Below, in pieces: positions 7,176 through 49,898 of a DNA stretch of 64,000 nucleotides. The notes below the pieces were generated by a model. The model was not told the DNA's origin and searched no databases. It was given only the letters and a program-made list of their open reading frames with translations. How positions within the stretch are numbered: position 1 is the stretch's first letter; each line of letters begins with the position of its first letter. The position numbers and the translations under genes were made by a program. The stretch is from NCBI GenBank assembly GCA_035390125.1, contig DAOOTD010000002.1, forward strand, positions 41,908 through 105,907, in the 5' to 3' direction. The DNA comes from Candidatus Moraniibacteriota bacterium (GTDB lineage: Bacteria > Patescibacteriota > Minisyncoccia > Moranbacterales > GWC2-37-73).

Positions 7176-8297
7176 TTACATTTCAATTCTGTACAATTTG
7201 CCGTCAATTTTATTTACAAAATAAAGAAAGTCTTCAGTTTTGGAAAGAAATAAATTGCTTGAATCGTATTTTTTGGGAATGTTTGCTGAACTTACCACAC
7301 GCTCTTTCTTGGCTGTAGCAACATCCATTTTCCAAAAAGTATCTTCGGTTGTAAATTTGTTTTCTTGGTAATCGTTTGGCATAACAGCCTTATCGGGTAT
7401 CCCTCCGGGAAGAGCATAATAAATGGTCTTTCCGTCAGATGACCACACACACTTTGAAACCATGGTGGGTATGTTTAAATCATGATACTCGCCACTGCTT
7501 GTTACCAGCCCAAGCGTGGTTATCTTGCTGTTTTCACTAGCCAAGGAACTTACAAGCGCCTGTGTTCCATCCGGAGACCATAAGTAATCCGCTCCATGTT
7601 TCCCCCTAAAAATAGTTTGGGGCTGACCACTGATTGCGTTTACTATTATTAATTGTGATTCTTGCCCTGCGTCAGGATAATTCCAGTAGGAAACATTGGG
7701 AGTTGATGGAACAGCGGACATGGATATTTTTCTGAAATCTATATTGGCAAGCTTCTGCCAGTTTCCTCCGTCCGGATCAGCTATGTTTAAAGATCTTTCC
7801 TTTTTTATCGAGTCATAATATTTATAGAAAATTTTTGCACCTGCATTGTCCCAAACAACTAGGTCGGTGCCATCTTTTAATCTGGTACCCTTTTTGTTTT
7901 GGTGATCATAGGCATAAAAATAAGTCTGCCCATCTTTTTTGAAAGTTGTCAGAACCTTTTTGTGGTCAAGAGACCACAACGCGCCAGCCAGACCATCGAG
8001 CTTGGTCGGGTCTATTTGTTTTTCTCCACTGCCGTTCTCAATCGCTTGCCAAACAGTTCCGTCTTCTGCCGAATAAAAAACTATTGTTCCGTTTTTTTCG
8101 TCAAAAAATGGGCTCATTACTTCCTGATCAGAAACTGATTTTATTTTTTCAGGTATTTTTTGCGGAACCATTTCTTTGTTTTCCTCTGGCTGGACAATTT
8201 TTTCCGGAACATCTTGTTTAAAAGCAAAGTTATATATGCCTAAAAAAAAGAGAATGAATACGAGCAAGGCTGAGGAAAATATAAAAATTTTTTTCAT
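7176..8297 (-). CDS. secreted/anchored protein, beta-propeller-like (TolB/WD40-like repeats)
   Basis: N-terminal TM anchor followed by repeated DG..W/YY beta-strand-rich segments. Last gene of the minus-strand surface cluster. Confidence 0.4.
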   Translation of the reverse strand: MKKIFIFSSALLVFILFFLGIYNFAFKQDVPEKIVQPEENKEMVPQKIPEKIKSVSDQEVMSPFFDEKNGTIVFYSAEDGTVWQAIENGSGEKQIDPTKLDGLAGALWSLDHKKVLTTFKKDGQTYFYAYDHQNKKGTRLKDGTDLVVWDNAGAKIFYKYYDSIKKERSLNIADPDGGNWQKLANIDFRKISMSAVPSTPNVSYWNYPDAGQESQLIIVNAISGQPQTIFRGKHGADYLWSPDGTQALVSSLASENSKITTLGLVTSSGEYHDLNIPTMVSKCVWSSDGKTIYYALPGGIPDKAVMPNDYQENKFTTEDTFWKMDVATAKKERVVSSANIPKKYDSSNLFLSKTEDFLYFVNKIDGKLYRIEM

Positions 8298-8315: not shown

Positions 8316-9218
8316 TTAATTGCAAGCTGAAGACATTTTGGGCTTTTCGAAGTGCCAGGGCTCAGAAGCAAGAACGCAAAAACCTTTTTCTTTCATTGCA
8401 TCGATAAGGGGTTTTTGTATTCGTTTGCAATTGCCAATATCTTTTAAACATTGTTTTTGATAAATAACTTGAGCTCCGCCTTTGGCAACCCATATGTCTG
8501 CCGCTGCGCCCACGCAATGTGGACATCTCTTGAGAGAATCTCTTCCGTTTTTTAGTGTGTTGGTTGGTATCCTGCATTGACTTGATCTTTTTGTAGTAGG
8601 ATAACTTCCACAGTTTTGTATCACTAGCGCCTTCTGTTCCTCGAAAGTCCTGATGCCAGAAGTTACTATCGTTTTCACGCCTTTGCTATTAGCATAATCT
8701 AGCGCCTCGATAAACGGCTGGCTAAGTGGCTTGGTGTTGCGTGATTTGCTTTGGGCTATATCTCTTGGTGTCGGCGCTGGTGTTGGTCCAGGAGATATTG
8801 CGTCTTCATCTTCTGCTCCTTCTTCAATAATTACCGGCACAAAAGCTATATTTATATTAGTAAGATCGGGGTTGATGACATATACAATCAGATAAGCTGA
8901 CATGGCCGCCACAATGCCCAGCAGAGAATCAGCAATCAATTGCTTGGCGGTTTCAGCTCTGGCAGTGTTGCCTGCGCTGGTCATATACCAAAATCCGCCT
9001 ATGGTTATCATAAAAAGTCCGGCGATGCCAACTGTCCAGATGCCGAATTTATAGATGGCTAGGATCAGATCCGGAAAACTCTCAACCTTTGCGCCTGCAT
9101 CATAAAAACCAGGAATACCTTGTAGCAGTTTGTATTCCATTATCGCAGCCTGAGTTGTGTTGCTTAGTCCCCAAAAAAGAAAAAGGGCTATGGGGATAAT
9201 TAAAAAAAATTTTTTCAT
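8316..9218 (-). CDS. signal peptide + VirB2/TrbC-like two-helix pilin domain fused to an M15 (VanY-like) D-Ala-D-Ala peptidase domain
   Basis: N-terminus has a signal peptide then two long hydrophobic helices split by a short polar loop (YKFGIWTVGIAGLFMITIGGFWYMTSAGNTARAETAKQLIADSLLGIVAAMSAYLI). The C-terminus carries LAS-family zinc peptidase motifs (HCVGAAADIW and SEPWHFE). Confidence 0.6.
   Translation of the reverse strand: MKKFFLIIPIALFLFWGLSNTTQAAIMEYKLLQGIPGFYDAGAKVESFPDLILAIYKFGIWTVGIAGLFMITIGGFWYMTSAGNTARAETAKQLIADSLLGIVAAMSAYLIVYVINPDLTNINIAFVPVIIEEGAEDEDAISPGPTPAPTPRDIAQSKSRNTKPLSQPFIEALDYANSKGVKTIVTSGIRTFEEQKALVIQNCGSYPTTKRSSQCRIPTNTLKNGRDSLKRCPHCVGAAADIWVAKGGAQVIYQKQCLKDIGNCKRIQKPLIDAMKEKGFCVLASEPWHFEKPKMSSACN
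8889..9078. repeat. 190-bp identical direct repeat, copy 1 (inside the pilin-like domain coding region)
   Basis: Run atcagataagctgacatggccgcc...gatccggaaaa is identical to 9343-9533. Confidence 0.9.
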
Positions 9219-9265
9219 TTTAATTCTTTTGGGTATAATGCAATTCTGTTTTTTATTGATTATTA

Positions 9266-9673
9266 TTACTCTCCGGACTGAAAGGTTCTCTGGATAATAC
9301 TTAGATCAACTTTTGTAAGATCGGGATTGATGATATATAAAATCAGATAAGCTGACATGGCCGCCACAATGCCCAGCAGAGAATCAGCAATCAATTGCTT
9401 GGCGGTTTCAGCTCTGGCAGTGTTGCCTGCGCTGGTCATATACCAAAATCCGCCTATGGTTATCATAAAAAGTCCGGCGATGCCAACTGTCCAGATGCCG
9501 AATTTATAGATGGCTAGGATCAGATCCGGAAAATTATCCACAGTTTCGCCTGCAGCGTAAAAGCCAGGAATCCCTTGCAGTAGATTGTACTTCATTTCTA
9601 CACCATGAACTGCTCTGCCTAAAAATAAAGAGGATAGAAAACTTATTGCTATAATTATTTTTTTTCTTTTCAT
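9266..9673 (-). CDS. VirB2/TrbC-like two-helix pilin-like protein (paralog lacking the peptidase domain)
   Basis: Over 90 percent identical to the N-terminal 110 aa of the 8316-9218 product. Has its own signal peptide. Confidence 0.55.
   Translation of the reverse strand: MKRKKIIIAISFLSSLFLGRAVHGVEMKYNLLQGIPGFYAAGETVDNFPDLILAIYKFGIWTVGIAGLFMITIGGFWYMTSAGNTARAETAKQLIADSLLGIVAAMSAYLILYIINPDLTKVDLSIIQRTFQSGE
9343..9533. repeat. 190-bp identical direct repeat, copy 2
   Basis: Identical to 8889-9078. Flanks diverge immediately outside. Confidence 0.9.
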
Positions 9674-9745: not shown

Positions 9746-12700
9746 TTATTCTTTTTTTTCAAAAATTGATTCTGGCATTAAAGAAAATATTATCCCCATC
9801 GAGAACACCAGAACGATTGAAGTTACTGTTATTCTTAGCAAAAACAACATCTGCTCTGGCAGGTTTGTTATGAGGCTCGCAAAAATACCTGCTTTTTGGG
9901 GACTTTTCATAAACGTTATAGGGTCTTTTGTCACTTCTATAACAAACTCCTGATTAACATAGATGTCTTTATTTGAACTTAGAGGAGAGATGCCCCACTT
10001 ATCTTTAAGCTCTTTGCGCAAAGCATTGAGACCCTCCCTCTCCGCTCTTTCTAGTTTTGCTGTTCTGACTTTATATCCCACCAAATAGCTGTCCTTAGCT
10101 TCTTTTTTAACTGTAAATTCGAATGTGGAAGAATCTCCTGTAGAGGAAATTGTAATATCACCATCATCATTTCCATATGAAGCATCTCCATCTAATACCT
10201 GGACTCCATCAAGATACCATTCAAAAACTGCTTTTTGCCCAAAACTGTTTCCTGCAGTAGCTGTTAAAGAAACCCTCGTGTCTTCTTTAGCTTCCATAAC
10301 TGTATTACTAAAAGAGTCAACTTCATTGTTGTCTACGGTGTAGTATGTGCCCATAAATTTTCTCATAGCTCCTGAGGCACTGGATATCTGAGCATAGGAT
10401 CCGACAATAACAAATCTTTGGGTAATTTCTTGCCTGACGCCATTTTGGTTTGTTCCCCTAGCAACAACATTCACGGATTCTCCCGGATTACCTATAATAG
10501 GAAAGATTAGACCATTAAAACCCTGGCAGAGAGTTGAAAGACATTCCATTGATTGGCCGTTAACTTTCCAGGAATAGCCGCTTCCTCCATCTACCTCGAC
10601 CGCCACTAATTTGTTTTGTGTCACGGGACAAATTGCTTCTCCTTGTCCATTACATATTTGACTTCCTATACTAATCCCTGATGCGGAATAGCTTATCTCT
10701 CTTACTTTTATTGTTTCCGTTTGATTTCTAACCTTAACGATAACCTGCCCTTGGCTTGATTGGCCAGAGTTATTGTCCGTGGTTTTTACTGTAATCCTTA
10801 GATAAAATATGTCGCCCTCTATATCTAATGTGAGCGGGAAGCTTATTTTGCTTTTACCTAAACCGCTTAAAGATCCTATTTTCACGTCCTGTCCGCCCGT
10901 GCTTGATTCAGTTGGCGGAGAAGTAAATGCCTCCACTTTCCACTCATAATAAATGTCTTTCAAATCACCCGAGTTTTTTGACATAGCCTGAACCGTCAGG
11001 GTGTCGCTGTTTAAACCCTCTGGGTCATTCAGGGGATTTGTAGGCGTGGCAGAAAGTTTTGTTTCAAAAGCATATGAGACTCCGCCGGTTGCATCACTGC
11101 TAAGCGGATCCACTAAGTTTTCTTCTAGGCATCTATCTAAATCAAAATCTGTAGTCAATATTCCTTTATTGTTTTCAGGGTCTTTATAAAAAGCTGTCGT
11201 TGCTGTTCCATTAGTTCCTCCGTCTGTCATTTCTTTCCCCACTATGTCCTTTAATTCATCACACTTGCCTTTTGAAAATGCCCACATAATCATATTCTTT
11301 GAATCATTGTGTGGTCCCGCTAGTTGGCTTTCGCCCTCAACAACCACCCCGATTTCATCGCCATCAGTATATGTCCAATTAAATTTTTTAGCTCCCAATC
11401 CAATTACAGTAGCTTCATCTGCTTTTCCTTTAAAATTTTCTCCAAAATAAAAATTTTTTTCATTAGTTTTAAATTGGCCATCCCCGGGCTTAAAATTTTC
11501 GTCCGGATCATAAGGAAATAGGTGTTTGCATAAATTATCTTCCTCCCCCAACGCCGGTCCAAAGGAACAACTTGGTTCAAGATCTGGATTTCCTGTTACC
11601 TCAGAATTAGAATCTTCTACAAACACCCCGCTAATGGTTCCGTCTGACTTTACTCCATTTATCAGGCCCTGCGTCAGATAAGAACAATTTTCATGTTCTG
11701 AACTATAGAGCACTTCATCTAAAATTCCTGGTGGAGGTGCAAGTAGACCAATGTTAGTGTTGGGCTTTCCCAATGAAGAACAAAACGCGCCTTCACTTCT
11801 AACTATAGTCGCTCTAATATTATCAGGCGCAGTTTTATTGTTATCTATCATATTAAAATTCCCGCTTGCCGGCATGCATATCGGTGTTCCTCCATTTTTA
11901 CACGACAAATATGCATGAAACAGTTTATAGTCCTCACTTTTAGTTGTGCAATTAAATACCTGTTTCATTCCGGCTTCTCCAGTTGAGCTTGCAATACTTT
12001 TAACCATGCAGCCACTAAAATTCATGTCATTATGTTTCAGTTCCCAGCATGCATTTGCATCATAAAAAGGCGGTATAGTGTTGGGCGGACTTGTGTTTGT
12101 TGGGTCACAGACCGGCTCTGTTCCTGTAAATGCTGGGTCCAGCACCTCGCAGTTCATTGTTCGGTCTTCTACGCAAGCTGGCACCGGATAGTCATCTGGG
12201 CATGGGGTCTTGAAAATTGGTTCCGTTTTTCTTAATTCATAAATAAGTCCGCTTACTGGTTCCTGTACATAGCAATTTTCTGCTTCATACTTATTGCCGC
12301 TTTCTCTTTTCCAGGTTTTAATCCATCCATCATCATCTTCGACTGAGGGCACCGCCTCTATTCCAGCTTCCGCGGAGGTGTCTCCCTCGGCACTATTTTG
12401 GCCGGCATATCTTAGGGCGGCTAACTTCCAATCGTTAGGCGTTATGACATTATCGTTATCCAAATCACACGAGTCTCCATCGGCTCCTCCGTCCTTATCC
12501 CACCACTCGTCTGTTAAATCACAGTCTTTATTCTTTAAATACCATGTATAATAAAGATTATCACCACTAAATCCTGCCACCACTGCTTCGGCAGTTGCGG
12601 AAGCTCCAGTTTGAGGAACACCTCCTGGGAACATGACTCTTATTTCTACCTTGGGACCCTCTTTTTTGCCTTCAGCGGTTTGTTGCGCTATGGTAATCTC

Positions 12701-12832
12701 ATCTTCATCTTCCTGACTTAAGTCGGAAGAGACAGAAGCTGCTTGCAAATATACTGGAGCAGGAAATGTTTGTAAAAAAAGCATACATAAAATAGTTGCC
12801 AGATAAACTAATTTTTTATTTTTTTTACGCAT
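9746..12832 (-). CDS. giant (1028 aa) Cys-rich secreted surface protein with C-terminal TM anchor
   Basis: N-terminal signal peptide (MRKKNKKLVYLATILCMLFLQTFPAPVYLQAA) and a C-terminal hydrophobic anchor. Many paired Cys and Gly/Asp/Thr-rich segments. First gene of a co-directional cluster with the pilin-like genes. Confidence 0.6.
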   Translation of the reverse strand: MRKKNKKLVYLATILCMLFLQTFPAPVYLQAASVSSDLSQEDEDEITIAQQTAEGKKEGPKVEIRVMFPGGVPQTGASATAEAVVAGFSGDNLYYTWYLKNKDCDLTDEWWDKDGGADGDSCDLDNDNVITPNDWKLAALRYAGQNSAEGDTSAEAGIEAVPSVEDDDGWIKTWKRESGNKYEAENCYVQEPVSGLIYELRKTEPIFKTPCPDDYPVPACVEDRTMNCEVLDPAFTGTEPVCDPTNTSPPNTIPPFYDANACWELKHNDMNFSGCMVKSIASSTGEAGMKQVFNCTTKSEDYKLFHAYLSCKNGGTPICMPASGNFNMIDNNKTAPDNIRATIVRSEGAFCSSLGKPNTNIGLLAPPPGILDEVLYSSEHENCSYLTQGLINGVKSDGTISGVFVEDSNSEVTGNPDLEPSCSFGPALGEEDNLCKHLFPYDPDENFKPGDGQFKTNEKNFYFGENFKGKADEATVIGLGAKKFNWTYTDGDEIGVVVEGESQLAGPHNDSKNMIMWAFSKGKCDELKDIVGKEMTDGGTNGTATTAFYKDPENNKGILTTDFDLDRCLEENLVDPLSSDATGGVSYAFETKLSATPTNPLNDPEGLNSDTLTVQAMSKNSGDLKDIYYEWKVEAFTSPPTESSTGGQDVKIGSLSGLGKSKISFPLTLDIEGDIFYLRITVKTTDNNSGQSSQGQVIVKVRNQTETIKVREISYSASGISIGSQICNGQGEAICPVTQNKLVAVEVDGGSGYSWKVNGQSMECLSTLCQGFNGLIFPIIGNPGESVNVVARGTNQNGVRQEITQRFVIVGSYAQISSASGAMRKFMGTYYTVDNNEVDSFSNTVMEAKEDTRVSLTATAGNSFGQKAVFEWYLDGVQVLDGDASYGNDDGDITISSTGDSSTFEFTVKKEAKDSYLVGYKVRTAKLERAEREGLNALRKELKDKWGISPLSSNKDIYVNQEFVIEVTKDPITFMKSPQKAGIFASLITNLPEQMLFLLRITVTSIVLVFSMGIIFSLMPESIFEKKE

Positions 12833-12863: not shown

Positions 12864-13502
12864 TTATATTTGCATATTTATTAAACGCACCATATTTGCA
12901 TGTAAAACAATTATTACAAGAAATTGACAGGCTGTTGCATAAAAAATAGATCTACTCTTATATACAATCCAACCAGCTAAAGGAGCGCTTATTAAATAGG
13001 GAAAAAGAGACCAAGTTAAAGATTTTGTCCCAATAACTAAGGCAAAAAAAAGTAAAAATTGGACCAATATCCCCCACTGGGATATTCTTTTTTCTAGTAT
13101 CAGAAGCACAAATCCCCGGAAGAAAAAATCATATATAAAAATAACAGGCAAAACTCTTGAAAATTCATAAAAAATAAACTCCTTATAATTATTTATAATA
13201 GAAGAAGTTATGGGATATTTTGTTAAAAAATCAAAAAAATAAATAGCTATAAAAAAAGCAAAACCAGTTATAATTAAACTTATGCCACTCCAAATTAATC
13301 CTTGTTTCCAATTGCCAATCTTAATCCCAATATCACTTAACTTTTTTTTTAATATAAATTTATTAAATATTATAGGGATTAAAATAAAAAAAGTAACCAT
13401 TATAATAAGTAGCTGAAAATTATTTCTTGAAGGAAAAAGACCATAGGTAATTAATAAGCAAATAATAAAAAATAAGCTCATTATAAATTCTTTTGTTTTC
13501 AT
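12864..13502 (-). CDS. multi-TM membrane protein, possible CPBP (CAAX protease)-family
   Basis: Six hydrophobic helices. Weak matches to CPBP motifs (YEFSRV...FFFRGFV, LHANM). Confidence 0.3.
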   Translation of the reverse strand: MKTKEFIMSLFFIICLLITYGLFPSRNNFQLLIIMVTFFILIPIIFNKFILKKKLSDIGIKIGNWKQGLIWSGISLIITGFAFFIAIYFFDFLTKYPITSSIINNYKEFIFYEFSRVLPVIFIYDFFFRGFVLLILEKRISQWGILVQFLLFFALVIGTKSLTWSLFPYLISAPLAGWIVYKSRSIFYATACQFLVIIVLHANMVRLINMQI

Positions 13503-31389: not shown

Positions 31390-32373
31390 TTAATTAGCAC
31401 TTATTTCTTTATAGTATGATTGAAAATCATTTTTAAAAAAATCAGCAAATAGGTCTAAATAGGCAGTTGCTTTGTTTGCAATGACTAGCTTTCCCATTGG
31501 GTCGTTTGAACTCAAAGAATAGTCTTTTAATGTCAAAACGCCCTTGATAAGCCTTAAAAATTTTACATGTAAATCAACCATGGTCTCTGGAACCTGGACA
31601 CTACTGACTTGATTTGAAAACGCTTCTAATCTATTACCAAGATCAGAAAAATAGGAGATATTTTCTTTTGAATTTCCAACATCAGCTACCTTTGAAAGGA
31701 AATCTTCTTGAAATGCAGTAAAATCATCTTTTGTTAAAATTTGAACAGGAAGATTATTGGCCATTAGATATAATACCTGATTCAAATATCTTGCGGAGTC
31801 TTCAGCTTCTCTCTTTTTCCTGTCTGCATCACTGAGTGATGAATAATTTTGTTTCAGTATGTTGAGTTGTGTTTCATCAACAAAAGGTAACGTATCCCAA
31901 GTTATAGAATCTCCCATATTTTTAGCAATTTGTTCATCGGCAAAATTGCGCAAATCGGTTACTGAAACATTCTGGCCTTCTTTCGAGGAAACAAATGCAC
32001 TTAAGTTTTGCAAATATTCATCTGTGAGTGTTGAACTGTTGCTAACTGAAGATGTGCTTTTTGAAGAAGCATCAGAAGTCTTTATTCCAGTTTCAATTTT
32101 ATCTCCCGGGGCCGGCTTAAGAGGATCATATCCGCTTTGGACTTCAATGCCATCCGAATAGCTATCATTATCGGTGTCATTTTTGTTAATGTCTGTTCCG
32201 TATAAATTTTCTTCTGTGTTTGTAAGTCCGTCACAATCAGAATCAATATTTTTATCACAAGAATTTGAGTCTGAATCAATATTTTCTGCATATGTAAAAT
32301 AATTGAAACTTGCAAAAAAAATACAAACCATGATTAGGAATAATTTTTTAAGAGTGTTTATTTTTATATACAT
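31390..32373 (-). CDS. hypothetical secreted protein with Asp-rich (TSP3-like) calcium-binding-type repeats
   Basis: Signal peptide, then DSDCDGLTNTEEN...DTDNDSYSDGIE repeats. Confidence 0.5.
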   Translation of the reverse strand: MYIKINTLKKLFLIMVCIFFASFNYFTYAENIDSDSNSCDKNIDSDCDGLTNTEENLYGTDINKNDTDNDSYSDGIEVQSGYDPLKPAPGDKIETGIKTSDASSKSTSSVSNSSTLTDEYLQNLSAFVSSKEGQNVSVTDLRNFADEQIAKNMGDSITWDTLPFVDETQLNILKQNYSSLSDADRKKREAEDSARYLNQVLYLMANNLPVQILTKDDFTAFQEDFLSKVADVGNSKENISYFSDLGNRLEAFSNQVSSVQVPETMVDLHVKFLRLIKGVLTLKDYSLSSNDPMGKLVIANKATAYLDLFADFFKNDFQSYYKEISAN

Positions 32374-32651: not shown

Positions 32652-34265
32652 TTAAATAAAGCTCTTCTTGTTACTTAAAATAAATCCAAATATAAGCCAC
32701 AACAGTATTTGCCCCTGTTGGATATCCCAAAAGTAATGATCGAAAAGCATTATAAAAAGAAATGAAACAAGTACCGCCCTAAAATGATAATTTTCTAAGG
32801 TATTTATTTGTATATTTTTTTCAATAGACTCATTATTTTTAAAGTTACTTAAATTGTTCCACGTGGAACAAATGTCAATTTTTTCACCGAATAGCTTAAA
32901 CAAAAAGATTAAAAAAAGAAAAAGCATCAATATACCAAAATCATTTAATAAAAGCAAAAAAACATTATGGACGGGCTGAAATTGCCATATTTGTACATCT
33001 TTTATTTTTTCTATGTAAGCAATAAATTGTCCACTACCTAATCCTAGAATTGGGTTTAGAGCAAAAATTTGGCTTGAAATACTTGTATAAAATCCTCTTT
33101 CTTGAAGGCTTTTATAAAATATTGAATTCAGATCTGTATTTAGTAGAAAAAATAGAAAGAAAAATATACATAAAATCAAGAAAAATTTTTTAATAAAGAC
33201 TATTTTATTAAAAAAAATGAAATTGTTCCACGTGGAACAATTTTTTTTACAGAGGTAAATAAAAGCTATTATAAGACCTAAGATTGCGGATTTTGAAAAT
33301 GTTAAAAAAATGGCTAAAAACTGAATTAATATAATGAAAAAAAATATAAATGTTTCACGTGGAACATTTATATTAAAAACATTAATAAATAACATTTTTT
33401 CAGGTGCTTTTTTAAGCCTTGAAAATTGTTCCACGCGGAACAATTTAAAATATAGTATAGATATGATTATAGAAAAAACTAAAAAACCTCCAAGTATATT
33501 TGGATGAGGAAAAAGACCGTAAGCTCTCAGGTATGTTGATCCATTTATGATAATTTTAGCGACTCCTGTTAATTGAGTTGAAATAATGCTTTCTTTCAGC
33601 CATATTAAACCTAGGGATTGTTGGCTTAAAATCTGAATTATTCCGATAATTGATTGTAATATACCTATTCCTATAATTATCTTAAAAATTATTCTAAGCC
33701 TATATAAATGTTCCACGTGGAACATTTTGCTTATATAAATAAAAAGTAGAACAAATTCGAGAATTTTTAATGATCTAAATAGAGCAATTTGGTGACTTTC
33801 TGACCATAGGATAGATATAAAAGAAAAAATAACTAAAAATAAAGGAAAAAATAATAGTAAGTTGTGATTAAATTGTTGATAAAGGTTTTTTAAACATGAA
33901 AAAAGATTATTAAATGTTTTTTTATTTAATATTTTGTTGTAATTGTTCCACGTGGAACAATTTATTTTTAGAGTAGAAAAAGCTGTCAATATTGACAGAA
34001 TACTATTTTTATTGCATAATATTAAAAACCAAGTAAATAATGTCAGAAAAAGGAATATGTCAGACAAGTATATGTATACTCCCATATATTCATTAAATAC
34101 ACCTTTTACAGGATAATAGAAAAGCACTTTTCTTATGGATAATGTGCTTGTGGCAAGAAAAGCACAAAAAAACCAAAAATCTGGTTTTTTTCTAAAAGAG
34201 ATTAAAGTTTTTCTGATTAAATCAGTCATATTCTTATTATAATGTATTTTTAGCAAAAAAAACAT
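32652..34265 (-). CDS. Wzy_C/O-antigen-ligase-like polytopic membrane protein carrying six in-frame palindrome insertions
   Basis: 537-aa ORF open in AT-rich DNA with many TM helices and a Wzy_C-like segment (FPHPNILGGFLVFSI). Palindrome copies translate as CSTWNN (three times), NVPRETF, LFRVEQF and MFHVEHL. Confidence 0.55.
   Translation of the reverse strand: MFFLLKIHYNKNMTDLIRKTLISFRKKPDFWFFCAFLATSTLSIRKVLFYYPVKGVFNEYMGVYIYLSDIFLFLTLFTWFLILCNKNSILSILTAFSTLKINCSTWNNYNKILNKKTFNNLFSCLKNLYQQFNHNLLLFFPLFLVIFSFISILWSESHQIALFRSLKILEFVLLFIYISKMFHVEHLYRLRIIFKIIIGIGILQSIIGIIQILSQQSLGLIWLKESIISTQLTGVAKIIINGSTYLRAYGLFPHPNILGGFLVFSIIISILYFKLFRVEQFSRLKKAPEKMLFINVFNINVPRETFIFFFIILIQFLAIFLTFSKSAILGLIIAFIYLCKKNCSTWNNFIFFNKIVFIKKFFLILCIFFFLFFLLNTDLNSIFYKSLQERGFYTSISSQIFALNPILGLGSGQFIAYIEKIKDVQIWQFQPVHNVFLLLLNDFGILMLFLFLIFLFKLFGEKIDICSTWNNLSNFKNNESIEKNIQINTLENYHFRAVLVSFLFIMLFDHYFWDIQQGQILLWLIFGFILSNKKSFI
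32854..33960. repeat. array of six copies of an 18-22 bp perfect palindrome (AA)TTGTTCCACGTGGAACAA(TT)
   Basis: Copies at 32854, 33223, 33351 (variant), 33427 (CACGCG variant), 33709 and 33943. All lie inside one ORF and occupy three different reading frames. Confidence 0.9.
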
Positions 34266-41228: not shown

Positions 41229-41300
41229 GCGGGTATCGTATAGTGGCTATTATACGTCCTTGCCAAGGATGAGACGGCAGTTCGATTCTGCTTACCCGCT
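41229..41300 (+). tRNA. tRNA-Gly (anticodon GCC)
   Basis: Anticodon stem-loop cgtcc-ttGCCaa-ggatg. The 3' end overlaps the stop of the recombinase gene. Confidence 0.85.
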
Positions 41301-42899
41301 CAGAAGTTCAAAAACGGCCTTAGATTGGGCTGTTTTTGTTTTATCTAAGGCAAAATTAGTCAGTTCTAACCTTGGACATTCTGCCTTTATGGTTTCCAAT
41401 CCTTTTTCAATGAGTTGGTATTGTTTTCTTAGTGTGATATCTAGCACGCCATCCTTGAGGGTGAAATCTGATCCCAAAGCCCGTAAAATGTTGGTTTTCT
41501 CGGTATAATCACCAACATTAAAATTATGTTTTGCATATACCGCAAACTTGAATGTTTTTTCGGTCAGTTCTAACCATTCATCGGCTCGCTGGTTTATGTC
41601 ATCTAAAGATTGTTGAATCTTGTCTTTTTCTTTCAGTAGGGTCGCTTTTCTTTCCTTGAATTCGTCATCGCCAATTAAATCCTTGTTGGCATTTTCGGGT
41701 GAGATGTAGATATCTAACAACTTATCAATCCTATCTTGGCATTTCTTCAATGCTTTTTGTTGGTTTTCAATCATTATGTTCCTATTATCAACTTCGAGTT
41801 CGTTATCTCGCCTTAAGATTTTCAAAGCATAATCCAAAAAACTTTTAGGTATAGTGATTTTATCCAACTTATCTGCAATCTGCTTGTTGATGTCGTTGTA
41901 GGTAATGGATTTTTGTTTGCAATTAACATTCAACTTCTTTCTAGTGCAGTTATGATAGATGAATGTTCGGACAACATTTTCGGTTTTTATATGCTTCAGT
42001 TTTAGTTGGGTAGTAATATGACATCCGCACTCACCGCAACGGATAGTTCCTCGATAGGGAAGAATTTTATGTTTTGTTTGTGGCTTAGTTTTATTTCCCA
42101 AAAGTCCTTGAACATAATCAAATTCAGCTTCGGTTATCATCGGTGTGTGATTTCCTTCATAAACCTTACCAGTCCATTCATATTTTCCACAATAAAAAGG
42201 ATTGGTAAAAATATCGTATCCATGGCTAGCGTGCAGTTTTATTTCTTGCCCCTTGCACATTCTTCGCAAACCCCATTCATTGTTGGCAATCTCGATAATT
42301 TTTGAAACAGAATAGTCGCCAGTTAACATCAAGTCCCACATCTTACGAACAATGGGGAATTTTACTTCATCTACAAAAATCTGTTTTTTACCTTGGTCTG
42401 TTCCTTTGTCATTTTTATATCCTATCGGTGCACGACCAGGTCTCCAGCCTTGCTCTGCCTTATTCAACAGTCCTCGTCGGACATCTTTTCCTAAATCAAT
42501 AACATATTGGTTCGCCATTCCAAATTCAACACTCATCATTATCACATTGTCTACGGTTTTGTATTCTCTGCCGACTGTTTGGATGGACTGGATGAGTCCT
42601 TGTTGAAGCAACCACATTATCTCACCACCATCAACGGGATTTCTTGCTAGACGATTTAACTTCCAGCATATAATTCCATCTGCCTTGCCTTGTTTAATAG
42701 CAGACAGCATTTTGTTGAATTGTTCCCGACCTGGCTTTTTCGCTGATTTGCTCTCTTGAAAAACACCGACAATTTTAACATCGAGATGGCGTGCTAATTT
42801 TTCCAGTTCTTTTTTCTGGCTTTCAATAGATTGCGTTTGACGATCTTCCGCTTCGGTACTTTTGCGAAGATACATCAGATATTTTTGTTTTGTTTCCAT
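41292..42899 (-). CDS. large serine recombinase (phage-integrase type)
   Basis: N-terminal resolvase catalytic domain (YLRKSTEAEDRQTQSIESQ with the nucleophilic Ser), recombinase domain, zinc-ribbon CGECGCH...C and a C-terminal coiled-coil. The stop overlaps the tRNA-Gly 3' end. Confidence 0.85.
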   Translation of the reverse strand: METKQKYLMYLRKSTEAEDRQTQSIESQKKELEKLARHLDVKIVGVFQESKSAKKPGREQFNKMLSAIKQGKADGIICWKLNRLARNPVDGGEIMWLLQQGLIQSIQTVGREYKTVDNVIMMSVEFGMANQYVIDLGKDVRRGLLNKAEQGWRPGRAPIGYKNDKGTDQGKKQIFVDEVKFPIVRKMWDLMLTGDYSVSKIIEIANNEWGLRRMCKGQEIKLHASHGYDIFTNPFYCGKYEWTGKVYEGNHTPMITEAEFDYVQGLLGNKTKPQTKHKILPYRGTIRCGECGCHITTQLKLKHIKTENVVRTFIYHNCTRKKLNVNCKQKSITYNDINKQIADKLDKITIPKSFLDYALKILRRDNELEVDNRNIMIENQQKALKKCQDRIDKLLDIYISPENANKDLIGDDEFKERKATLLKEKDKIQQSLDDINQRADEWLELTEKTFKFAVYAKHNFNVGDYTEKTNILRALGSDFTLKDGVLDITLRKQYQLIEKGLETIKAECPRLELTNFALDKTKTAQSKAVFELLSG

Positions 42900-47045: not shown

Positions 47046-48348
47046 AACTATGTACCAAGTAAAAATACCTAAGATATTATTTTTAGCACTAGGGACAGCA
47101 AGATTTTATTATAAAGGTTATTATAATACAAATGATCTCGCTGGAATTGCAAATAAATATGCCGAACATCTCGTTCGTTTAAGATCAGACAAAAAAGATT
47201 ATAAGTATTTGGATGATACTAATTTTGGTGGATTAAGAGGAAATTTTTCAACACTTCTTACGTGGAAAGGGTTTGTTAAAAGGGGAAATGCCATAGTAAG
47301 TAGATATTATATTGGCAGGGATAAAAGATTGGCTAATGCAGTATGTAATGGTGAAATTATACTAAATGAGAGTAATATGACTGCGTATACTACAAATGAA
47401 AAATTAAAAGAACTTTTAGAATTAGAAGCATGGCTTTTCACCGTAAAGGAAACACAGGCACATATAAAAGTTATGTTAGGAAAAGATAAGAGCATACCTC
47501 TTTCTAGAGATAACGATAATTTCAAAAAAGTATCTGTCGTAAGGAGTGCAAATGGTCAATATTTTATAAGATCGTTAGTTAACAATTTTATTGATTCAAA
47601 AAATAAAGTTCTGGAGTACAGTATAGTTAATTTTTGGGAAGGAAAAAAGTTAAAGAAGAAAAATCTTCATCCATTAATAGTTATTCCTACGAAAGATACT
47701 CCTTGGAGTAAAATATTTGCAATAAAAATGGAAGATTTGATTGATAATAAACCTTTGACATTATTGGTTGATTTAGAAAAAGAAATTTGTTTTGATACGG
47801 ACAATAATAAATACAAGCTATATTCTCTAAGGGAAGCCGTTGACGAATTTACAACTGGAGATGAAAATATACCTCAAAGGCTTTCATATTCCTGGGAAAA
47901 AATAAAAGAGGCTCACTGTGATAAAGAAGCTGATTTTTCTGAAATCAAAGAAGATGAATTTATAATTTTTCTAGAGAAATTCCTCAAGTGGCAAAAAGAA
48001 TTTGAAGTTGGAGAAAAGAAAGTTGTGGGTGTAAATGTATCGAGCTCTGGTGGTCCCGATGTTCACTTAACATTTTCGGGTGGCACAGCCCAAAAATTAG
48101 AACTTGAACATAACTGGAAAAGCTACTTAGATCACAGGCATCACGAAAGTAATGCATGGGTAGATACATGGCTTTTTGCAGAAGAAGAATGGAATCCTAA
48201 AAGAATATTAAGTTTATACAAGACACATAGAAAAACCAATGGTCAAAGAATTCCTAATGTATTTTTATGTTTAGAAAGAGGAGAACGCAAGTGCTATGAA
48301 GCAAATTGGGATGAAGAAACATTTACAGAAATACCTTTAAAATTTTAG
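47029..48348 (+). CDS. hypothetical 439-aa protein, candidate second endonuclease subunit / specificity partner
   Basis: No family recognised. Possible D...ExK-like patch (PTKD...LLVDLEKE). Start overlaps the PD-(D/E)xK gene and the 3' end overlaps the convergent methyltransferase by 12 nt. Confidence 0.45.
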   Translation: MVIINKTMYQVKIPKILFLALGTARFYYKGYYNTNDLAGIANKYAEHLVRLRSDKKDYKYLDDTNFGGLRGNFSTLLTWKGFVKRGNAIVSRYYIGRDKRLANAVCNGEIILNESNMTAYTTNEKLKELLELEAWLFTVKETQAHIKVMLGKDKSIPLSRDNDNFKKVSVVRSANGQYFIRSLVNNFIDSKNKVLEYSIVNFWEGKKLKKKNLHPLIVIPTKDTPWSKIFAIKMEDLIDNKPLTLLVDLEKEICFDTDNNKYKLYSLREAVDEFTTGDENIPQRLSYSWEKIKEAHCDKEADFSEIKEDEFIIFLEKFLKWQKEFEVGEKKVVGVNVSSSGGPDVHLTFSGGTAQKLELEHNWKSYLDHRHHESNAWVDTWLFAEEEWNPKRILSLYKTHRKTNGQRIPNVFLCLERGERKCYEANWDEETFTEIPLKF

Positions 48349-49128
48349 TTTACTTAATTGATTTTTATTTTTTAACACAACTATTTTCGAGGTTGTGTTA
48401 TTTTTTTTCGCTCGATTTTTCATTATTTCAAAATATTCATTGTCATTCTCTATACTTATACTGTTCCTTTTTAATTGATCCGCTGAAGATTGAAGCGTTC
48501 CACTGCCGGCAAAACAATCTAAAACCCAGTCATTTTCATTAGTAAATATTTTTAGTAAGTGCTCTAAAACCTTGGCTGGTTTTTGAGTGGGATGTTTCGT
48601 TCTTTCATTGCCCATGCATATCGGAGTTTCTACAAAATCAGCCTTGATGTGATTATGCATTTCATTTTGCTTTGTAAAATTGAAAGTATAATCTATTTTT
48701 TTTTCATTAAATCCTTTCGTTGCCCATAAAATTGCCTCACATGAAGATAAAAAACCTGTTTTTCTAATTTGGGGGGCTGGATTAGTTTTGTGCCAAATAA
48801 TAGTAGCATGGTGTTTAAAATCATGCTTTTCATATATTCTTTTTATATCACTAATATATTCTAATTTGCTAAAAATTAACAAATTTCCAGATTCTTTAAC
48901 TTTATTTTTTGTATTCTTTATCCATTTATCAGTAAATAATAGATATTCATCATCAGAAAAATAATCCCACTTTCCAAAATCTGATGATCTAGCCTTTCTT
49001 CCTTTTAATATCTTGGTATTTTTATTAGCAGTATTGTAAGGAGGATCAACAATTACGGCATCGAATTTTTTATTGATTTTTGGCAAAATATCCAAAGCAT
49101 CTCCGAATATTAAATAATGTGAATTCAT
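48337..49128 (-). CDS. DNA methyltransferase, beta-class amino-MTase (N6A or N4C)
   Basis: Motif IV DPPY (AVIVDPPYNT) precedes motif I FxGxG (LDCFAGSGTL). Confidence 0.85.
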   Translation of the reverse strand: MNSHYLIFGDALDILPKINKKFDAVIVDPPYNTANKNTKILKGRKARSSDFGKWDYFSDDEYLLFTDKWIKNTKNKVKESGNLLIFSKLEYISDIKRIYEKHDFKHHATIIWHKTNPAPQIRKTGFLSSCEAILWATKGFNEKKIDYTFNFTKQNEMHNHIKADFVETPICMGNERTKHPTQKPAKVLEHLLKIFTNENDWVLDCFAGSGTLQSSADQLKRNSISIENDNEYFEIMKNRAKKNNTTSKIVVLKNKNQLSKLKF

Positions 49129-49133
49129 AAAGT

Positions 49134-49898
49134 TTATTTTTTTAGTCGTTTAAGTGAATCAATATAATAACCCTTGTCAACTTCAGAACCTATAAAATTT
49201 CTTTTTAATCTTTTCGCCACAACCGCAGTAGTCCCTGAACCCATAAAAGGATCGAATATAATATCATTTTCATTTGAAGTTGCTAGTATTATTTTCTCTA
49301 AAAGCCATTCTGGTTTTTGTGTAGGATGTATTTTTTTTCCTCCCGCAGTTTTTCCTCTTGTCAAAACAGCTTCTCCATACCACATGCACCTCATTTGCTT
49401 TCCGTGATTAATCTTTTTCATCTCACCATAATTAAATGTATTTTTTTTAGTTTTTCTTGCCCATATGAAATTTTCATGATCAGCTACAAATCTCGTACAA
49501 GACAAATTTGGTGTAGCATCAGATTTGTGCCATATTATTTCATTTAAAGGCTCAAGCCCTATTTTTTTTAATAAGTATCCTGTTAAATAAATATTATGAT
49601 AAGTTCCTGCAACCCATATTGCTCCTTCATTTTTTAATATTCTATAACATTCTTGTAGCCATTTCTTTGTAAATTCTTCGAATTCAATATCTCCAAAATT
49701 ATCCCAATGCCCTTTATTTGTGCTTAAATCAGAACCGCCAGATTTTATGAATTTTATCTTAAAATTGCTTTTGCTTAGGTTATAGGGAGGATCTGCAAAT
49801 ATCAAGTCAATAGAGTTGCTTTTAATTTTTTTCATTAATTTTAAGCAATCTTCATTGTAGATTTTATTTATTTTCAGTTTTTTATCTGTAAAAATCAT
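49134..49898 (-). CDS. DNA methyltransferase, beta-class amino-MTase (N6A or N4C), second copy
   Basis: IFADPPYNL then FDPFMGSGTTAVVA. Lies 5 nt upstream of the other MTase. Confidence 0.85.
   Translation of the reverse strand: MIFTDKKLKINKIYNEDCLKLMKKIKSNSIDLIFADPPYNLSKSNFKIKFIKSGGSDLSTNKGHWDNFGDIEFEEFTKKWLQECYRILKNEGAIWVAGTYHNIYLTGYLLKKIGLEPLNEIIWHKSDATPNLSCTRFVADHENFIWARKTKKNTFNYGEMKKINHGKQMRCMWYGEAVLTRGKTAGGKKIHPTQKPEWLLEKIILATSNENDIIFDPFMGSGTTAVVAKRLKRNFIGSEVDKGYYIDSLKRLKK

What the first reader, a model, noticed from the sequence alone, without database searches (positions are those of the whole stretch)
8316..9673. VirB2/TrbC-like two-helix pilin-like domain fused to an M15 D-Ala-D-Ala peptidase, plus a tandem paralog sharing a 190-bp identical stretch
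The 300-aa protein has a signal peptide, then two long hydrophobic helices joined by a short polar loop (the conjugative-pilin-like fold), then a LAS/VanY-type zinc peptidase domain (HCVGAAAD, EPWHFE). The upstream 135-aa paralog is the pilin-like domain alone. Nucleotides 8889-9078 and 9343-9533 are identical, which means recent duplication or ongoing gene conversion. A membrane-embedded or filament-forming module that carries its own peptidoglycan-cutting domain is unusual; it could be a wall-breaching surface appendage, or a holin-endolysin-like fusion.
Basis: partly seen in the sequence, partly recalled or inferred. Interest (0 to 1): 0.7.

Follow-up and report, generated by a model that had tools for sequence, protein, structure and literature searches.

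The report
Pilin-like anchor carrying swappable wall-cutting enzymes
Two neighbouring genes of an uncultured Moranbacteria (CPR) genome encode a conjugative-pilin-like membrane hairpin, once alone and once fused to a zinc cell-wall peptidase. They belong to an undescribed family in which this hairpin carries interchangeable wall-cutting domains and is kept nearly identical between copies by gene conversion.

Summary
ORF 8316-9218(-) encodes a signal peptide, a two-helix hairpin, a disordered linker and an intact M15/VanY-type zinc peptidase. ORF 9266-9673(-) encodes the hairpin alone. The identical stretch is 193 nt (8886-9078 = 9341-9533), with no synonymous differences, against about 40% third-position differences in the flanks.

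The hairpin is homologous to the VirB2/TrbC-like pilins of Patescibacteria (Pfam PF18895): profile-profile probability 98.9%, E 1.3e-17. The window proteins themselves score below Pfam's cut-off.

The fusion is one case of a family found in about 36 species-level genomes. About 45 of 48 members carry a 140-280 aa cysteine-rich C-domain. These fall into at least 14 sequence classes; those that can be named are VanY, SLT, SLT_3, NlpC/P60 and C39-like.

All members lie in one origin-proximal operon with a ~1,000-1,150 aa surface protein and a TolB-like propeller. No T4SS gene is nearby. In all 14 genomes with two copies, the hairpins are 85-100% identical in DNA while the cargo differs.

The phage holin-endolysin reading is rejected. 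Most likely these are membrane-tethered wall hydrolases on a pilin-derived docking module. Display of the enzyme on a pilus is not excluded. I found no paper describing this. It is a new variant of known kinds.

The parts
8316..9218 (-). Gene for the 300-aa fusion protein: signal peptide, pilin-like hairpin, linker, M15/VanY-type zinc peptidase
   Evidence: ORF. 17 full-length orthologues at 47-54% identity. AlphaFold model, pLDDT 76.
9147..9218 (-). Signal peptide (about residues 1-24, MKKFFLIIPIALFLFWGLSNTTQA|A)
   Evidence: Hydrophobic N-terminus. The cleavage site is read from the sequence (inference).
8847..9140 (-). VirB2/TrbC-like (PF18895-type) pilin domain of the fusion protein, residues 27-124: conserved Y-LL-G-PGF motif, TM helix 1, basic loop SAGN...AK, TM helix 2, INPDL motif
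   Evidence: N-domain HMM 164 bits. PF18895 20.6 bits, below the cut-off of 26.6. hhalign against true pilins 98.9%.
8769..8846 (-). Acidic, Pro-rich disordered linker (residues about 125-150)
   Evidence: pLDDT below 50 for residues 120-146.
8319..8768 (-). M15/LAS (VanY-like) zinc peptidase domain, residues about 151-300. It has SGIR(190), H234-x6-D241, E286-x-x-H289 and 8 Cys.
   Evidence: Invariant columns. Profile against PDB: VanY 5hnm, E 8.9e-5. Foldseek: VanY/VanYB, Ply500, LysB4, LdcB, ChiX, E 3e-4 to 9e-3.
9266..9673 (-). Gene for the 135-aa paralogue: signal peptide plus pilin-like hairpin only (cargo-less copy)
   Evidence: ORF. N-domain HMM 169 bits with 11 residues after the domain. 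Model pLDDT 80.
8886..9078 (-). Gene-conversion tract, copy in the fusion gene (codons 48-111)
   Evidence: 193 nt identical to 9341-9533. No synonymous differences.
9341..9533 (-). Gene-conversion tract, copy in the 135-aa gene (codons 48-111)
9746..12832 (-). Operon partner: 1028-aa secreted, Cys-rich protein with one C-terminal TM helix and no known domain
   Evidence: No Pfam, NCBIfam or PDB hit. A homologue lies directly upstream of the fusion genes in most related loci; it was not detected at E 1e-6 in about 9 of them.
7176..8297 (-). Operon partner: 373-aa N-terminally anchored TolB-like beta-propeller
   Evidence: TIGR02800 propeller_TolB 49 bits and PD40 17 bits, both below cut-off. 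Adjacent to the fusion genes in 34 of 37 related loci.
12864..13502 (-). Conserved upstream neighbour: CPBP/Rce1-like intramembrane protease
   Evidence: PF02517 25.7 bits, above cut-off. Weak MrtA hit. Synteny.

Best explanation
The two genes belong to a Moranbacteria-wide family. In it, a VirB2/TrbC-type pilin hairpin has become a conserved N-terminal module that carries interchangeable, disulfide-rich, extracytoplasmic cell-wall-hydrolase domains.

Shown or directly read from the sequence:
- The 300-aa protein is exported with a cleavable signal peptide.
- Its two helices form a hairpin. The loop is basic, while the N-terminal segment and the linker are acidic. This places both termini outside the cell.
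- A 27-residue flexible linker therefore holds an M15/LAS zinc peptidase outside the membrane. Its active site is complete: R190, H234, D241, E286, H289.
- The 135-aa gene is a copy of the module without cargo.

Inferred:
- The enzyme cuts peptidoglycan peptide stems in the cell's own wall. It would act as a membrane-tethered 'space-making' or remodelling hydrolase within the envelope complex encoded by the conserved operon (giant surface protein, TolB-like propeller). That role is functionally like VirB1, PrgK or TraG.
- The pilin-derived module serves as the docking or oligomerisation element.
- Recurrent gene conversion keeps the module nearly identical between the copies in each genome. 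This fits copies that must fit the same partner or each other.
For: Architecture and topology.

Pilin homology:
- PF18895 is the only consistent Pfam hit.
- The family HMM finds tandem arrays of short pilins in Saccharibacteria and Moranbacteria.
- All 30 sampled array pilins hit PF18895 at E of 0.001 or better, and 14 also hit PF04956 TrbC.
- hhalign between the two groups gives 98.9%, E 1.3e-17, over 74 columns, with a shared IGGxxYxTSAG(N/D)...AK motif.
- The precomputed Pfam annotation of the distant homologue P0097 lists PF02557 and PF18895 together.

Peptidase: invariant catalytic motifs, profile hit to VanY and Foldseek hits to VanY, Ply500, LysB4, LdcB and ChiX.

Family character:
- 45 of 48 members in species-representative genomes have a 140-280 aa C-domain.
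- 125 of the best 150 representatives carry at least 100 aa after the hairpin.
- There are at least 8 multi-member C-domain clusters plus 6 singletons, each with 6-16 Cys. Pfam names VanY, SLT, SLT_3, NlpC/P60 and C39-like among them.

In favour of action in cis on the cell's own wall:
- Conserved core operon next to dnaA in about 36 genomes.
- No room for immunity genes; the gaps are 18-72 nt.
- No VirB4 or VirB6 within the 64-kb window or 10 kb upstream.
- The short linker keeps the enzyme near the membrane.

Concerted evolution:
- 14 of 14 two-copy genomes show 85-100% nt identity over 285-420 nt that coincide with the N-domain.
- Amino-acid identity within a genome averages 97%, against 70% between genomes, and 20 of 20 copies have their best match in their own genome.
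Against: - No experiment exists for any family member. Enzyme specificity (DD- or LD-carboxypeptidase versus L-Ala-D-Glu endopeptidase) is unresolved at 15-22% identity to solved structures.
- Exchanging cargo classes between closely related species at one locus is more typical of effectors under conflict than of housekeeping enzymes.
- A simple anchor would not need the full conserved pilin fold. Nor would it need about 70% identity between species, which is as conserved as YidC in the same loci.
- At least one genome with this operon also has a separate locus with pilins and a VirB4-like ATPase (L014 and L051). Incorporation into a pilus is therefore possible.
- Most C-domain classes have no recognisable fold by sequence.
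Confidence: 0.45

Rival explanations
1. 'Evolved pilin': the hairpin is extracted from the membrane by the Patescibacterial T4SS and built into, or onto the tip of, a VirB2-like pilus. Because both pilin termini face the outside of conjugative pili, the C-terminal hydrolase would be displayed on the filament and would cut the wall of the host cell. Cargo swapping would then reflect an arms race with hosts. This would be the T4SS counterpart of Hcp-, VgrG- and PAAR-toxin fusions of T6SS.
For: - True homology to T4SS pilins.
- A conserved N-module with polymorphic C-terminal enzymatic domains, and different cargo in the two copies of every genome.
- Homogenised N-domains would be expected for subunits that must co-polymerise.
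- A T4SS locus with VirB4 co-exists with this operon in MAG CAZAFB01.
- Pilin arrays are essential for epibiotic growth in Southlakia (PMC10633639).
- Most Patescibacteria that have VirB2 lack a recognisable VirB1 (PMC12102498).
- That termini are exposed on the outside of F- and T-pili is from my own knowledge, not tested here.
Against: - No T4SS gene lies in or near the operon in any of about 36 loci.
- There are no immunity genes.
- A 150-aa globular domain on every subunit would sterically hinder a homopolymer.
- The N-domain is far more conserved (70%) than the array pilins, which are presumed to be exposed (about 25%, PMC12102498).
- No pilus has yet been seen for any Patescibacterial T4SS (PMC12857230 speaks only of a 'potential').
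Confidence: 0.28
2. Carrier and release: the pilin module is a secretion or insertion carrier, and the enzyme is cleaved off after the conserved INPDL junction. The neighbouring CPBP intramembrane protease could do this. The products would be a mature short pilin and a free secreted hydrolase. This would echo the C-terminal trimming of RP4 TrbC prepilin.
For: - A class-specific, nearly invariant INPDL motif lies exactly at the end of TM2, followed by a disordered linker.
- A CPBP/Rce1-like protease is conserved two genes upstream.
- Cargo-less copies ending just after the motif exist in the window and in L029.
- TrbC C-terminal processing is from my own knowledge.
Against: - There is no evidence of cleavage.
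- The CPBP protease is equally well explained as the processor of the C-terminal anchor of the adjacent 1028-aa protein.
- Sec signal peptides alone suffice for secretion, so a carrier is not needed.
Confidence: 0.12
3. Phage-type lysis cassette: a holin-like membrane protein fused to an endolysin.
For: - Two TM helices followed by an M15 domain.
- The closest folds include the phage endolysins Ply500 and LysB4.
Against: - Core chromosomal synteny next to dnaA in about 36 species, with no phage genes among the neighbours.
- A cleavable signal peptide and N-out/C-out topology.
- Homology to pilins, not to holins.
- No holin family appears in the Pfam hits.
Confidence: 0.02
4. The identical 193-nt stretch is an assembly artefact, such as a collapsed or chimeric repeat in a metagenome-assembled genome, and not biology.
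For: The source is a MAG, and repeats shorter than the read or k-mer length can be mis-joined.
Against: - The same locus, with these exact proteins, is present in independently assembled contigs (the 300-aa protein is on 4 contigs).
- Fourteen different assemblies from different studies show the same domain-bounded pattern with varying identity of 85-100%.
- The flanks of both copies are in frame and homologous.
Confidence: 0.02

Closest known systems
VirB2-like pilins of Patescibacteria (Pfam PF18895 T4SS_pilin; arrays described by Wang et al. 2023, PMC10633639, and Quinonero-Coronel et al. 2025, PMC12102498)
   Same: Signal peptide plus two-helix hairpin with the shared core motif IGGxxYxTSAG(N/D)...AK...G. 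Profile-profile probability is 98.9%. Both occur in tandem paralogues and both are found near the replication origin.
   Different: - Array pilins are 95-150 aa and end 5-10 residues after TM2. They average 25% identity within an array, with a maximum of 54% (PMC12102498), and many lie near virB4.
- The family here carries 140-280 aa enzymatic C-domains. It has extra conserved Y-LLE-PGF and INPDL motifs and is about 70% identical between species. Its copies are homogenised within genomes to 85-100% nt identity.
- It sits in a different operon with no T4SS genes.
T4SS-associated peptidoglycan hydrolases of monoderms (PrgK of pCF10, TraG of pIP501) and VirB1
   Same: These are membrane-anchored, extracytoplasmic wall hydrolases that combine glycosidase (SLT) and peptidase (CHAP/NlpC-P60) activities to open the wall for an envelope machine. 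The present family offers SLT, SLT_3, NlpC/P60 and M15 cargo.
   Different: - The anchor here is a pilin-fold hairpin, not a single TM helix.
- The activities are split over separate genes that share the same anchor.
- The genes are not encoded in a T4SS cluster.
- M15 and C39-like cargo are not typical of VirB1-type proteins.
Peptidase M15 / LAS enzymes: VanY, VanYB, LdcB, the phage endolysins Ply500 and LysB4, ChiX
   Same: Same fold and same zinc and catalytic motifs: SxHxxGxAxD, ExxH and the SGxR arginine.
   Different: Only 15-22% identity. The domain has eight conserved cysteines, so disulfides are likely. It is fused to a pilin-like hairpin. Its substrate specificity is unknown.
Specialised (cargo-fused) secretion-system subunits and polymorphic toxins (Hcp-, VgrG- and PAAR-toxin fusions of T6SS) - from my own knowledge
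   Same: A conserved N-terminal structural or trafficking module with exchangeable C-terminal enzymatic domains, including peptidoglycan hydrolases.
   Different: There are no adjacent immunity genes and no linkage to the secretion machinery. Only one or two copies occur per genome, at a fixed core locus.

Membership tests
Pfam PF18895 T4SS_pilin / PF04956 TrbC-VirB2 superfamily | Score above the curated Pfam gathering cut-off | tested here: not met
   The window proteins score 20.6 and 20.3 bits against a cut-off of 26.6. They give no PF04956 hit at E up to 1. 30 of 48 family members hit PF18895 at E of 0.01 or better, best 3.9e-8.
Pfam PF18895 T4SS_pilin / PF04956 TrbC-VirB2 superfamily | Demonstrable homology to accepted members | tested here: met
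   hhalign of the family alignment A2 against 30 array pilins (A4) gives 98.9%, E 1.3e-17, over 74 columns. All 30 A4 members hit PF18895 at E of 0.001 or better, and 14 hit PF04956.
Pfam PF18895 T4SS_pilin / PF04956 TrbC-VirB2 superfamily | Signal peptide followed by two hydrophobic helices joined by a short, basic loop | tested here: met
   Hydropathy. AlphaFold helices 48-80 and 85-115. The loop SAGNTARAETAK carries R and K, while the flanking outside segments are acidic (read from the sequence).
Pfam PF18895 T4SS_pilin / PF04956 TrbC-VirB2 superfamily | Small protein that ends shortly after TM2 | tested here: not met
   The 300-aa protein has 176 residues after the domain. The 135-aa paralogue has 11 and so meets the feature.
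Pfam PF18895 T4SS_pilin / PF04956 TrbC-VirB2 superfamily | Encoded with T4SS genes (virB4, virB6 and others) | tested here: not met
   No such domain was found in the ORFs scanned across the 64-kb window or in the 10 kb upstream. No VirB4-sized gene is seen in the operons whose genes were annotated (L001-L003, L076), and all related loci share the same gene order. A VirB4-like gene does exist elsewhere in one genome that carries the operon.
Pfam PF18895 T4SS_pilin / PF04956 TrbC-VirB2 superfamily | Polymerises into an extracellular pilus | not testable with these tools
   The monomer fold search is uninformative: no PDB hit with E below 0.4, only generic helical hairpins.
Peptidase M15 (VanY / LAS zinc peptidases) | Zinc ligands H-x6-D and a distal H, plus catalytic E (ExxH) and the SGxR arginine | tested here: met
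   R190, H234, D241, E286 and H289 are invariant in 17 orthologues and align to the VanY motifs.
Peptidase M15 (VanY / LAS zinc peptidases) | Significant sequence or structure similarity to solved members | tested here: met
   Pfam VanY on the single sequence gives only 15 bits, below the cut-off of 25. The profile against PDB gives 5hnm at E 8.9e-5. Foldseek gives VanY/VanYB 3e-4, Ply500 6.5e-4, LysB4 1.2e-3, LdcB 2.3e-3 and ChiX 8.7e-3.
Peptidase M15 (VanY / LAS zinc peptidases) | Peptidoglycan peptidase activity and bond specificity | not testable with these tools
   This needs a purified domain and muropeptide analysis.
VirB1 / PrgK / TraG-type T4SS wall hydrolases | Encoded inside a T4SS gene cluster, with SLT and/or CHAP domains | tested here: not met
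   The operon has no T4SS genes. The window protein carries M15, not SLT or CHAP. Some paralogues elsewhere carry SLT or NlpC/P60.
Phage holin-endolysin lysis cassette | Phage or prophage context and holin topology without a cleavable signal peptide | tested here: not met
   The neighbours are housekeeping genes and the synteny is conserved. A signal peptide is present. No holin family appears among the Pfam hits.
Polymorphic toxin / specialised effector fusions | Conserved N-terminal module with variable C-terminal enzymatic domains | tested here: met
   At least 14 C-domain classes sit behind one N-domain. The two copies in a genome never share a cargo class: 12 genomes have two different classes, and in 2 genomes one copy has no cargo.
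Polymorphic toxin / specialised effector fusions | Adjacent cognate immunity gene | tested here: not met
   The intergenic gaps are 18-72 nt and there is no small ORF between the operon genes. The same holds in L001 and L002.

The most novel reading that the evidence does not exclude
These proteins are 'evolved pilins': subunits of the Patescibacterial T4SS pilus that carry interchangeable peptidoglycan-hydrolase warheads on their exposed C-terminus. Epibiotic CPR bacteria would use them to open the wall of the host cell. This would be the first cargo-fused T4SS pilin and the T4SS equivalent of Hcp-, VgrG- and PAAR-effector fusions. Gene conversion would keep the polymerising module compatible while the cargo diversifies.
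Probability: 0.25. Interest if true: 0.85.

Novelty: new variant of a known kind. Interest (0 to 1): 0.62.

Why it matters
VirB2-like pilins are unexpected in monoderm Patescibacteria, and in one species they are essential for epibiotic growth. What they build and do is unknown. Published surveys also noted that most of these genomes lack a recognisable VirB1-type wall hydrolase.

A widespread subfamily in which the pilin fold is covalently joined to wall-cutting enzymes links the two questions directly. It offers concrete, testable candidates for how these ultrasmall cells breach a wall, whether their own or a host's.

The systematic, domain-bounded gene conversion next to non-homologous cargo is also a clean natural example of concerted evolution acting on one module of a multidomain protein.

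Tried and rejected
- **Sequence search of PDB with the N-domain profile:** no pilin hit.
- **Foldseek of the 135-aa model against PDB:** only non-significant generic helical hairpins such as ATP synthase c subunit and designed proteins. The fold alone cannot show pilin identity.
- **Single-sequence Pfam:** both domains fall below the curated cut-offs. Family-level evidence was needed.
- **NCBIfam:** no hit for either protein.
- **Search for T4SS genes:** none in the window or 10 kb upstream. The pilin array of another Moranbacteria locus, L067, also lacks an adjacent VirB4. Only L051 has one.
- **Naming the unannotated C-domain classes:** cluster 1 gives only weak hits (E about 0.7), though they are consistently to Hedgehog/LAS proteins. 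Clusters 0 and 3 gave nothing significant. My motif reading of them as lysozyme-like and LAS-like remains a lead, not a result.
- **Promoter and terminator scan:** not above shuffled expectation, so uninformative.
- **Literature searches** for PF18896 and for pilin-hydrolase fusions in CPR: nothing found.
- **Holin-endolysin and assembly-artefact readings:** rejected for the reasons given under the rival explanations.
Full report
**Source and context**

The window is a chromosomal stretch (GC 33.7%) of an uncultured Candidatus Moranbacteria genome (CPR/Patescibacteria). The 300-aa protein is identical to an NCBI entry from a Moranbacteria MAG and occurs on 4 contigs of up to 375 kb. The window begins about 1 kb from rnpA and dnaA. 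The genes around the finding are housekeeping and envelope genes: yidC, jag, a polysaccharide flippase, two glycosyltransferases, two Wzy-type genes, lspA, dksA-type, pnp, rpsO and gyrA.

**Checking the observation**

Two minus-strand ORFs, 9266-9673 (135 aa) and 8316-9218 (300 aa), lie 47 nt apart. Both start with a hydrophobic signal peptide. Both have two long hydrophobic segments at about residues 50-78 and 93-115.

AlphaFold models show helices 48-80 and 85-115 forming a hairpin (pLDDT 76 and 80). In the long protein a disordered linker (120-146) and a confident globular domain (pLDDT about 90) follow.

The exact repeat is 193 nt: 8886-9078 = 9341-9533. It covers codons 48-111 of both genes, that is TM1, the loop and TM2. 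There is not one synonymous difference in it. About 40% of third positions differ in the homologous flanks, so P is about 4e-15.

The repeat is a gene-conversion tract and is not explained by selection on the protein alone.

**The C-terminal domain**

In an alignment of 17 full-length orthologues (47-54% identity) the M15/VanY signature is invariant: SG-x-R190, H234-x6-D241 and E286-x-x-H289. Eight cysteines are conserved as well.

- The single sequence is below Pfam's VanY cut-off (15 bits against 25).
- The family profile finds VanY structures at E 8.9e-5 and the Listeria phage endolysin Ply500 at 0.009.
- Foldseek of the model finds VanY/VanYB, Ply500, LysB4, LdcB, VanXYg and ChiX, with E from 3e-4 to 9e-3.

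The domain is thus a LAS-fold zinc peptidase with an intact active site. Which bond of the peptide stem it cuts cannot be decided at 15-22% identity.

**The N-terminal domain**

The only consistent Pfam hit is PF18895 (T4SS_pilin). It scores 20.6 and 20.3 bits for the window proteins, below the cut-off of 26.6. It was found in 12 of 99 metagenomic homologues at E of 0.001 or better, and in 30 of 48 genome-derived homologues at E of 0.01 or better.

An HMM of the domain, searched in 75 related loci, separates two groups.

- *Class A* (above 100 bits) comprises the close relatives.
- *Class B* (20-70 bits) comprises tandem arrays of 4-7 short genes (95-150 aa) in Saccharibacteria and some Moranbacteria. 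These are the VirB2-like pilin arrays described in the literature (PMC10633639, PMC12102498).

All 30 class-B proteins sampled hit PF18895 at E of 0.001 or better, and 14 also hit PF04956 TrbC/VirB2. Profile-profile comparison of class A with class B gives 98.9% probability, E 1.3e-17, over 74 columns. The shared motif, IGGxxYxTSAG(N/D)...AK...G, is visible by eye.

Homology to VirB2/TrbC-type pilins is therefore well supported. The fold search of the hairpin alone is uninformative, and PDB sequence searches find no pilin.

**A family with swappable cargo**

The fusion is not a singular event.

- The first homologue search found about 17 VanY-type orthologues. It also found more than 100 proteins that share only the N-domain (55-70% identity) and carry other C-terminal domains: SLT, SLT_3, NlpC/P60 and C39-like.
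- In species-representative genomes, 45 of 48 class-A proteins carry 140-280 residues after the hairpin.
- Of the best 150 cluster representatives in a 1.84-billion-protein library, 125 carry at least 100 residues after it. In total 12,961 representatives match at E of 1e-3 or better and 790 at 1e-10 or better.
- All-against-all BLAST of the C-domains gives 8 multi-member clusters and 6 singletons. All are cysteine-rich, with 6-16 Cys. Where a genome has two copies with cargo, the cargo classes differ (12 of 12). In two more genomes, including the window, one copy has no cargo.
- Only about a third of the cargo domains are named by Pfam. Cluster 1 gives weak hits that are consistently to Hedgehog/LAS proteins. 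Clusters 0 and 3 give nothing significant.
- The cargo-less state of the window's 135-aa gene is the exception. Other examples are L029:8494-9285 and a truncated VanY-type copy at L015:11997-12650.

**Conserved genomic context**

Every class-A locus with enough flanking DNA lies in the same place. The gene order is dksA-type, lspA, a CPBP/Rce1-like protease, and a secreted protein of roughly 1,000-1,150 aa with one C-terminal TM helix. One or two fusion genes follow, interleaved with a 373-aa TolB-like beta-propeller that is anchored at its N-terminus.

This block converges on wzy-wzy-GT-GT-flippase-jag-yidC-rnpA-rpmH, next to dnaA. The gaps between the operon genes in the window are 18-72 nt.

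I found no VirB4- or VirB6-type domain in the ORFs scanned across the window or in the 10 kb upstream. In one MAG that has the operon (L014), a separate contig (L051) carries class-B pilins followed by a VirB4-like ATPase. A T4SS can therefore co-exist with the operon without being linked to it.

**Concerted evolution is general**

In all 14 genomes with two class-A copies, the DNA similarity between the copies is confined to 285-420 nt that coincide with the N-domain. It reaches 85-100% identity, including two cases of 100% over about 350 nt.

At the protein level the within-genome identity is 87.5-100% (mean 97%). Between genomes it averages 70%, with a maximum of 88.5%. Every one of 20 copies has its best match in its own genome. 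The window pair is in fact the least homogenised of the set.

**Mechanism**

Several steps are shown or follow directly from the sequence: Sec export, the hairpin with a basic loop and acidic outer segments (N-out/C-out, as in VirB2), and an extracytoplasmic, probably disulfide-bonded zinc peptidase on a flexible linker.

The rest is inferred. My best reading (confidence about 0.45) is a membrane-tethered wall hydrolase. It would act on the cell's own peptidoglycan within the complex encoded by the operon. The pilin-derived module would serve as the docking or oligomerising element.

- *For this reading:* the core-genome location, the lack of immunity genes, the lack of T4SS linkage, the short tether, and the high conservation of the module.
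- *Against it:* cargo swapping looks like conflict-driven diversification, and the retention of a complete pilin fold.

The main rival (about 0.28) is a cargo-bearing pilin displayed on a T4SS pilus to attack the host's wall. A third option (about 0.12) is proteolytic release at the conserved INPDL junction, perhaps by the neighbouring CPBP protease. The phage holin-endolysin reading and an assembly artefact are each at about 0.02.

**Comparison with what is known**

The pilin family (PF18895) and its arrays in Patescibacteria are published, and M15 peptidases are well known. Membrane-anchored T4SS hydrolases (PrgK, TraG, VirB1) are the closest functional analogues.

In the searchable literature I found no description of pilin-hydrolase fusions, of their conserved operon, or of the concerted evolution. 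The 2025 survey of Patescibacterial T4SS counted VirB2 homologues and noted that most genomes with VirB2 lack VirB1. It did not mention fusions.

Some homologues already carry both PF18895 and a hydrolase domain in precomputed Pfam annotation, for example P0097. The architecture is therefore implicit in databases but has not been interpreted.

I rate it a new variant of known kinds, with moderate-to-high interest.

Noticed in passing
window 41292-42899 (-), 48337-49898 (-), 50466-51368 (+): A large serine recombinase, two adjacent N6/N4 DNA methyltransferases and an RNase H-like gene, among several ORFs without Pfam hits. This may be an integrated mobile element at about 41-56 kb.
   Followed up: no
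window 12864-13502 (-) and 9746-12832 (-): A CPBP/Rce1-like intramembrane protease, with a weak NCBIfam hit to the archaeomyxosortase MrtA, lies directly upstream of the 1028-aa secreted protein that ends in a single C-terminal TM helix. The pair is conserved in most related loci. It could be a sorting-signal protease and its substrate.
   Followed up: partly
P0126, P0135, P0159, P0166, P0170, P0223; L067:9470-10222, L051:9924-10916, L065:9425-10228: Some proteins carry 2-6 pilin domains in tandem within one polypeptide (480-620 aa for the longest). Double-domain pilins often head the class-B arrays.
   Followed up: no
L015:11997-12650; L029:8494-9285: Other genomes also hold decayed or cargo-less copies: a VanY-type fusion truncated to 79 aa of C-domain, and an N-domain-only gene that is 100% identical over 348 nt to its neighbour. 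Loss of cargo therefore recurs.
   Followed up: partly
L051:12175-13995 (same MAG, CAZAFB01, as class-A locus L014): A VirB4-like ATPase (P-loop_TraG, AAA_10, DUF87) lies downstream of class-B pilins, followed by an RpfB-like G5/DPBB lytic transglycosylase and ksgA. It shows that a T4SS locus co-exists with the fusion operon in one genome.
   Followed up: partly
window 31390-32373 (-) and 32652-34265 (-): A bacterial TSP3-repeat protein lies next to a third Wzy/O-antigen-ligase-like gene. This is a further cell-surface gene cluster.
   Followed up: no
L002:9871-11004 and other class-A genes with 100-220 aa before the hairpin: Several family members also carry a long cysteine-rich extension between the signal peptide and the hairpin, up to about 220 aa. 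In these, both outward-facing termini carry extra domains.
   Followed up: no
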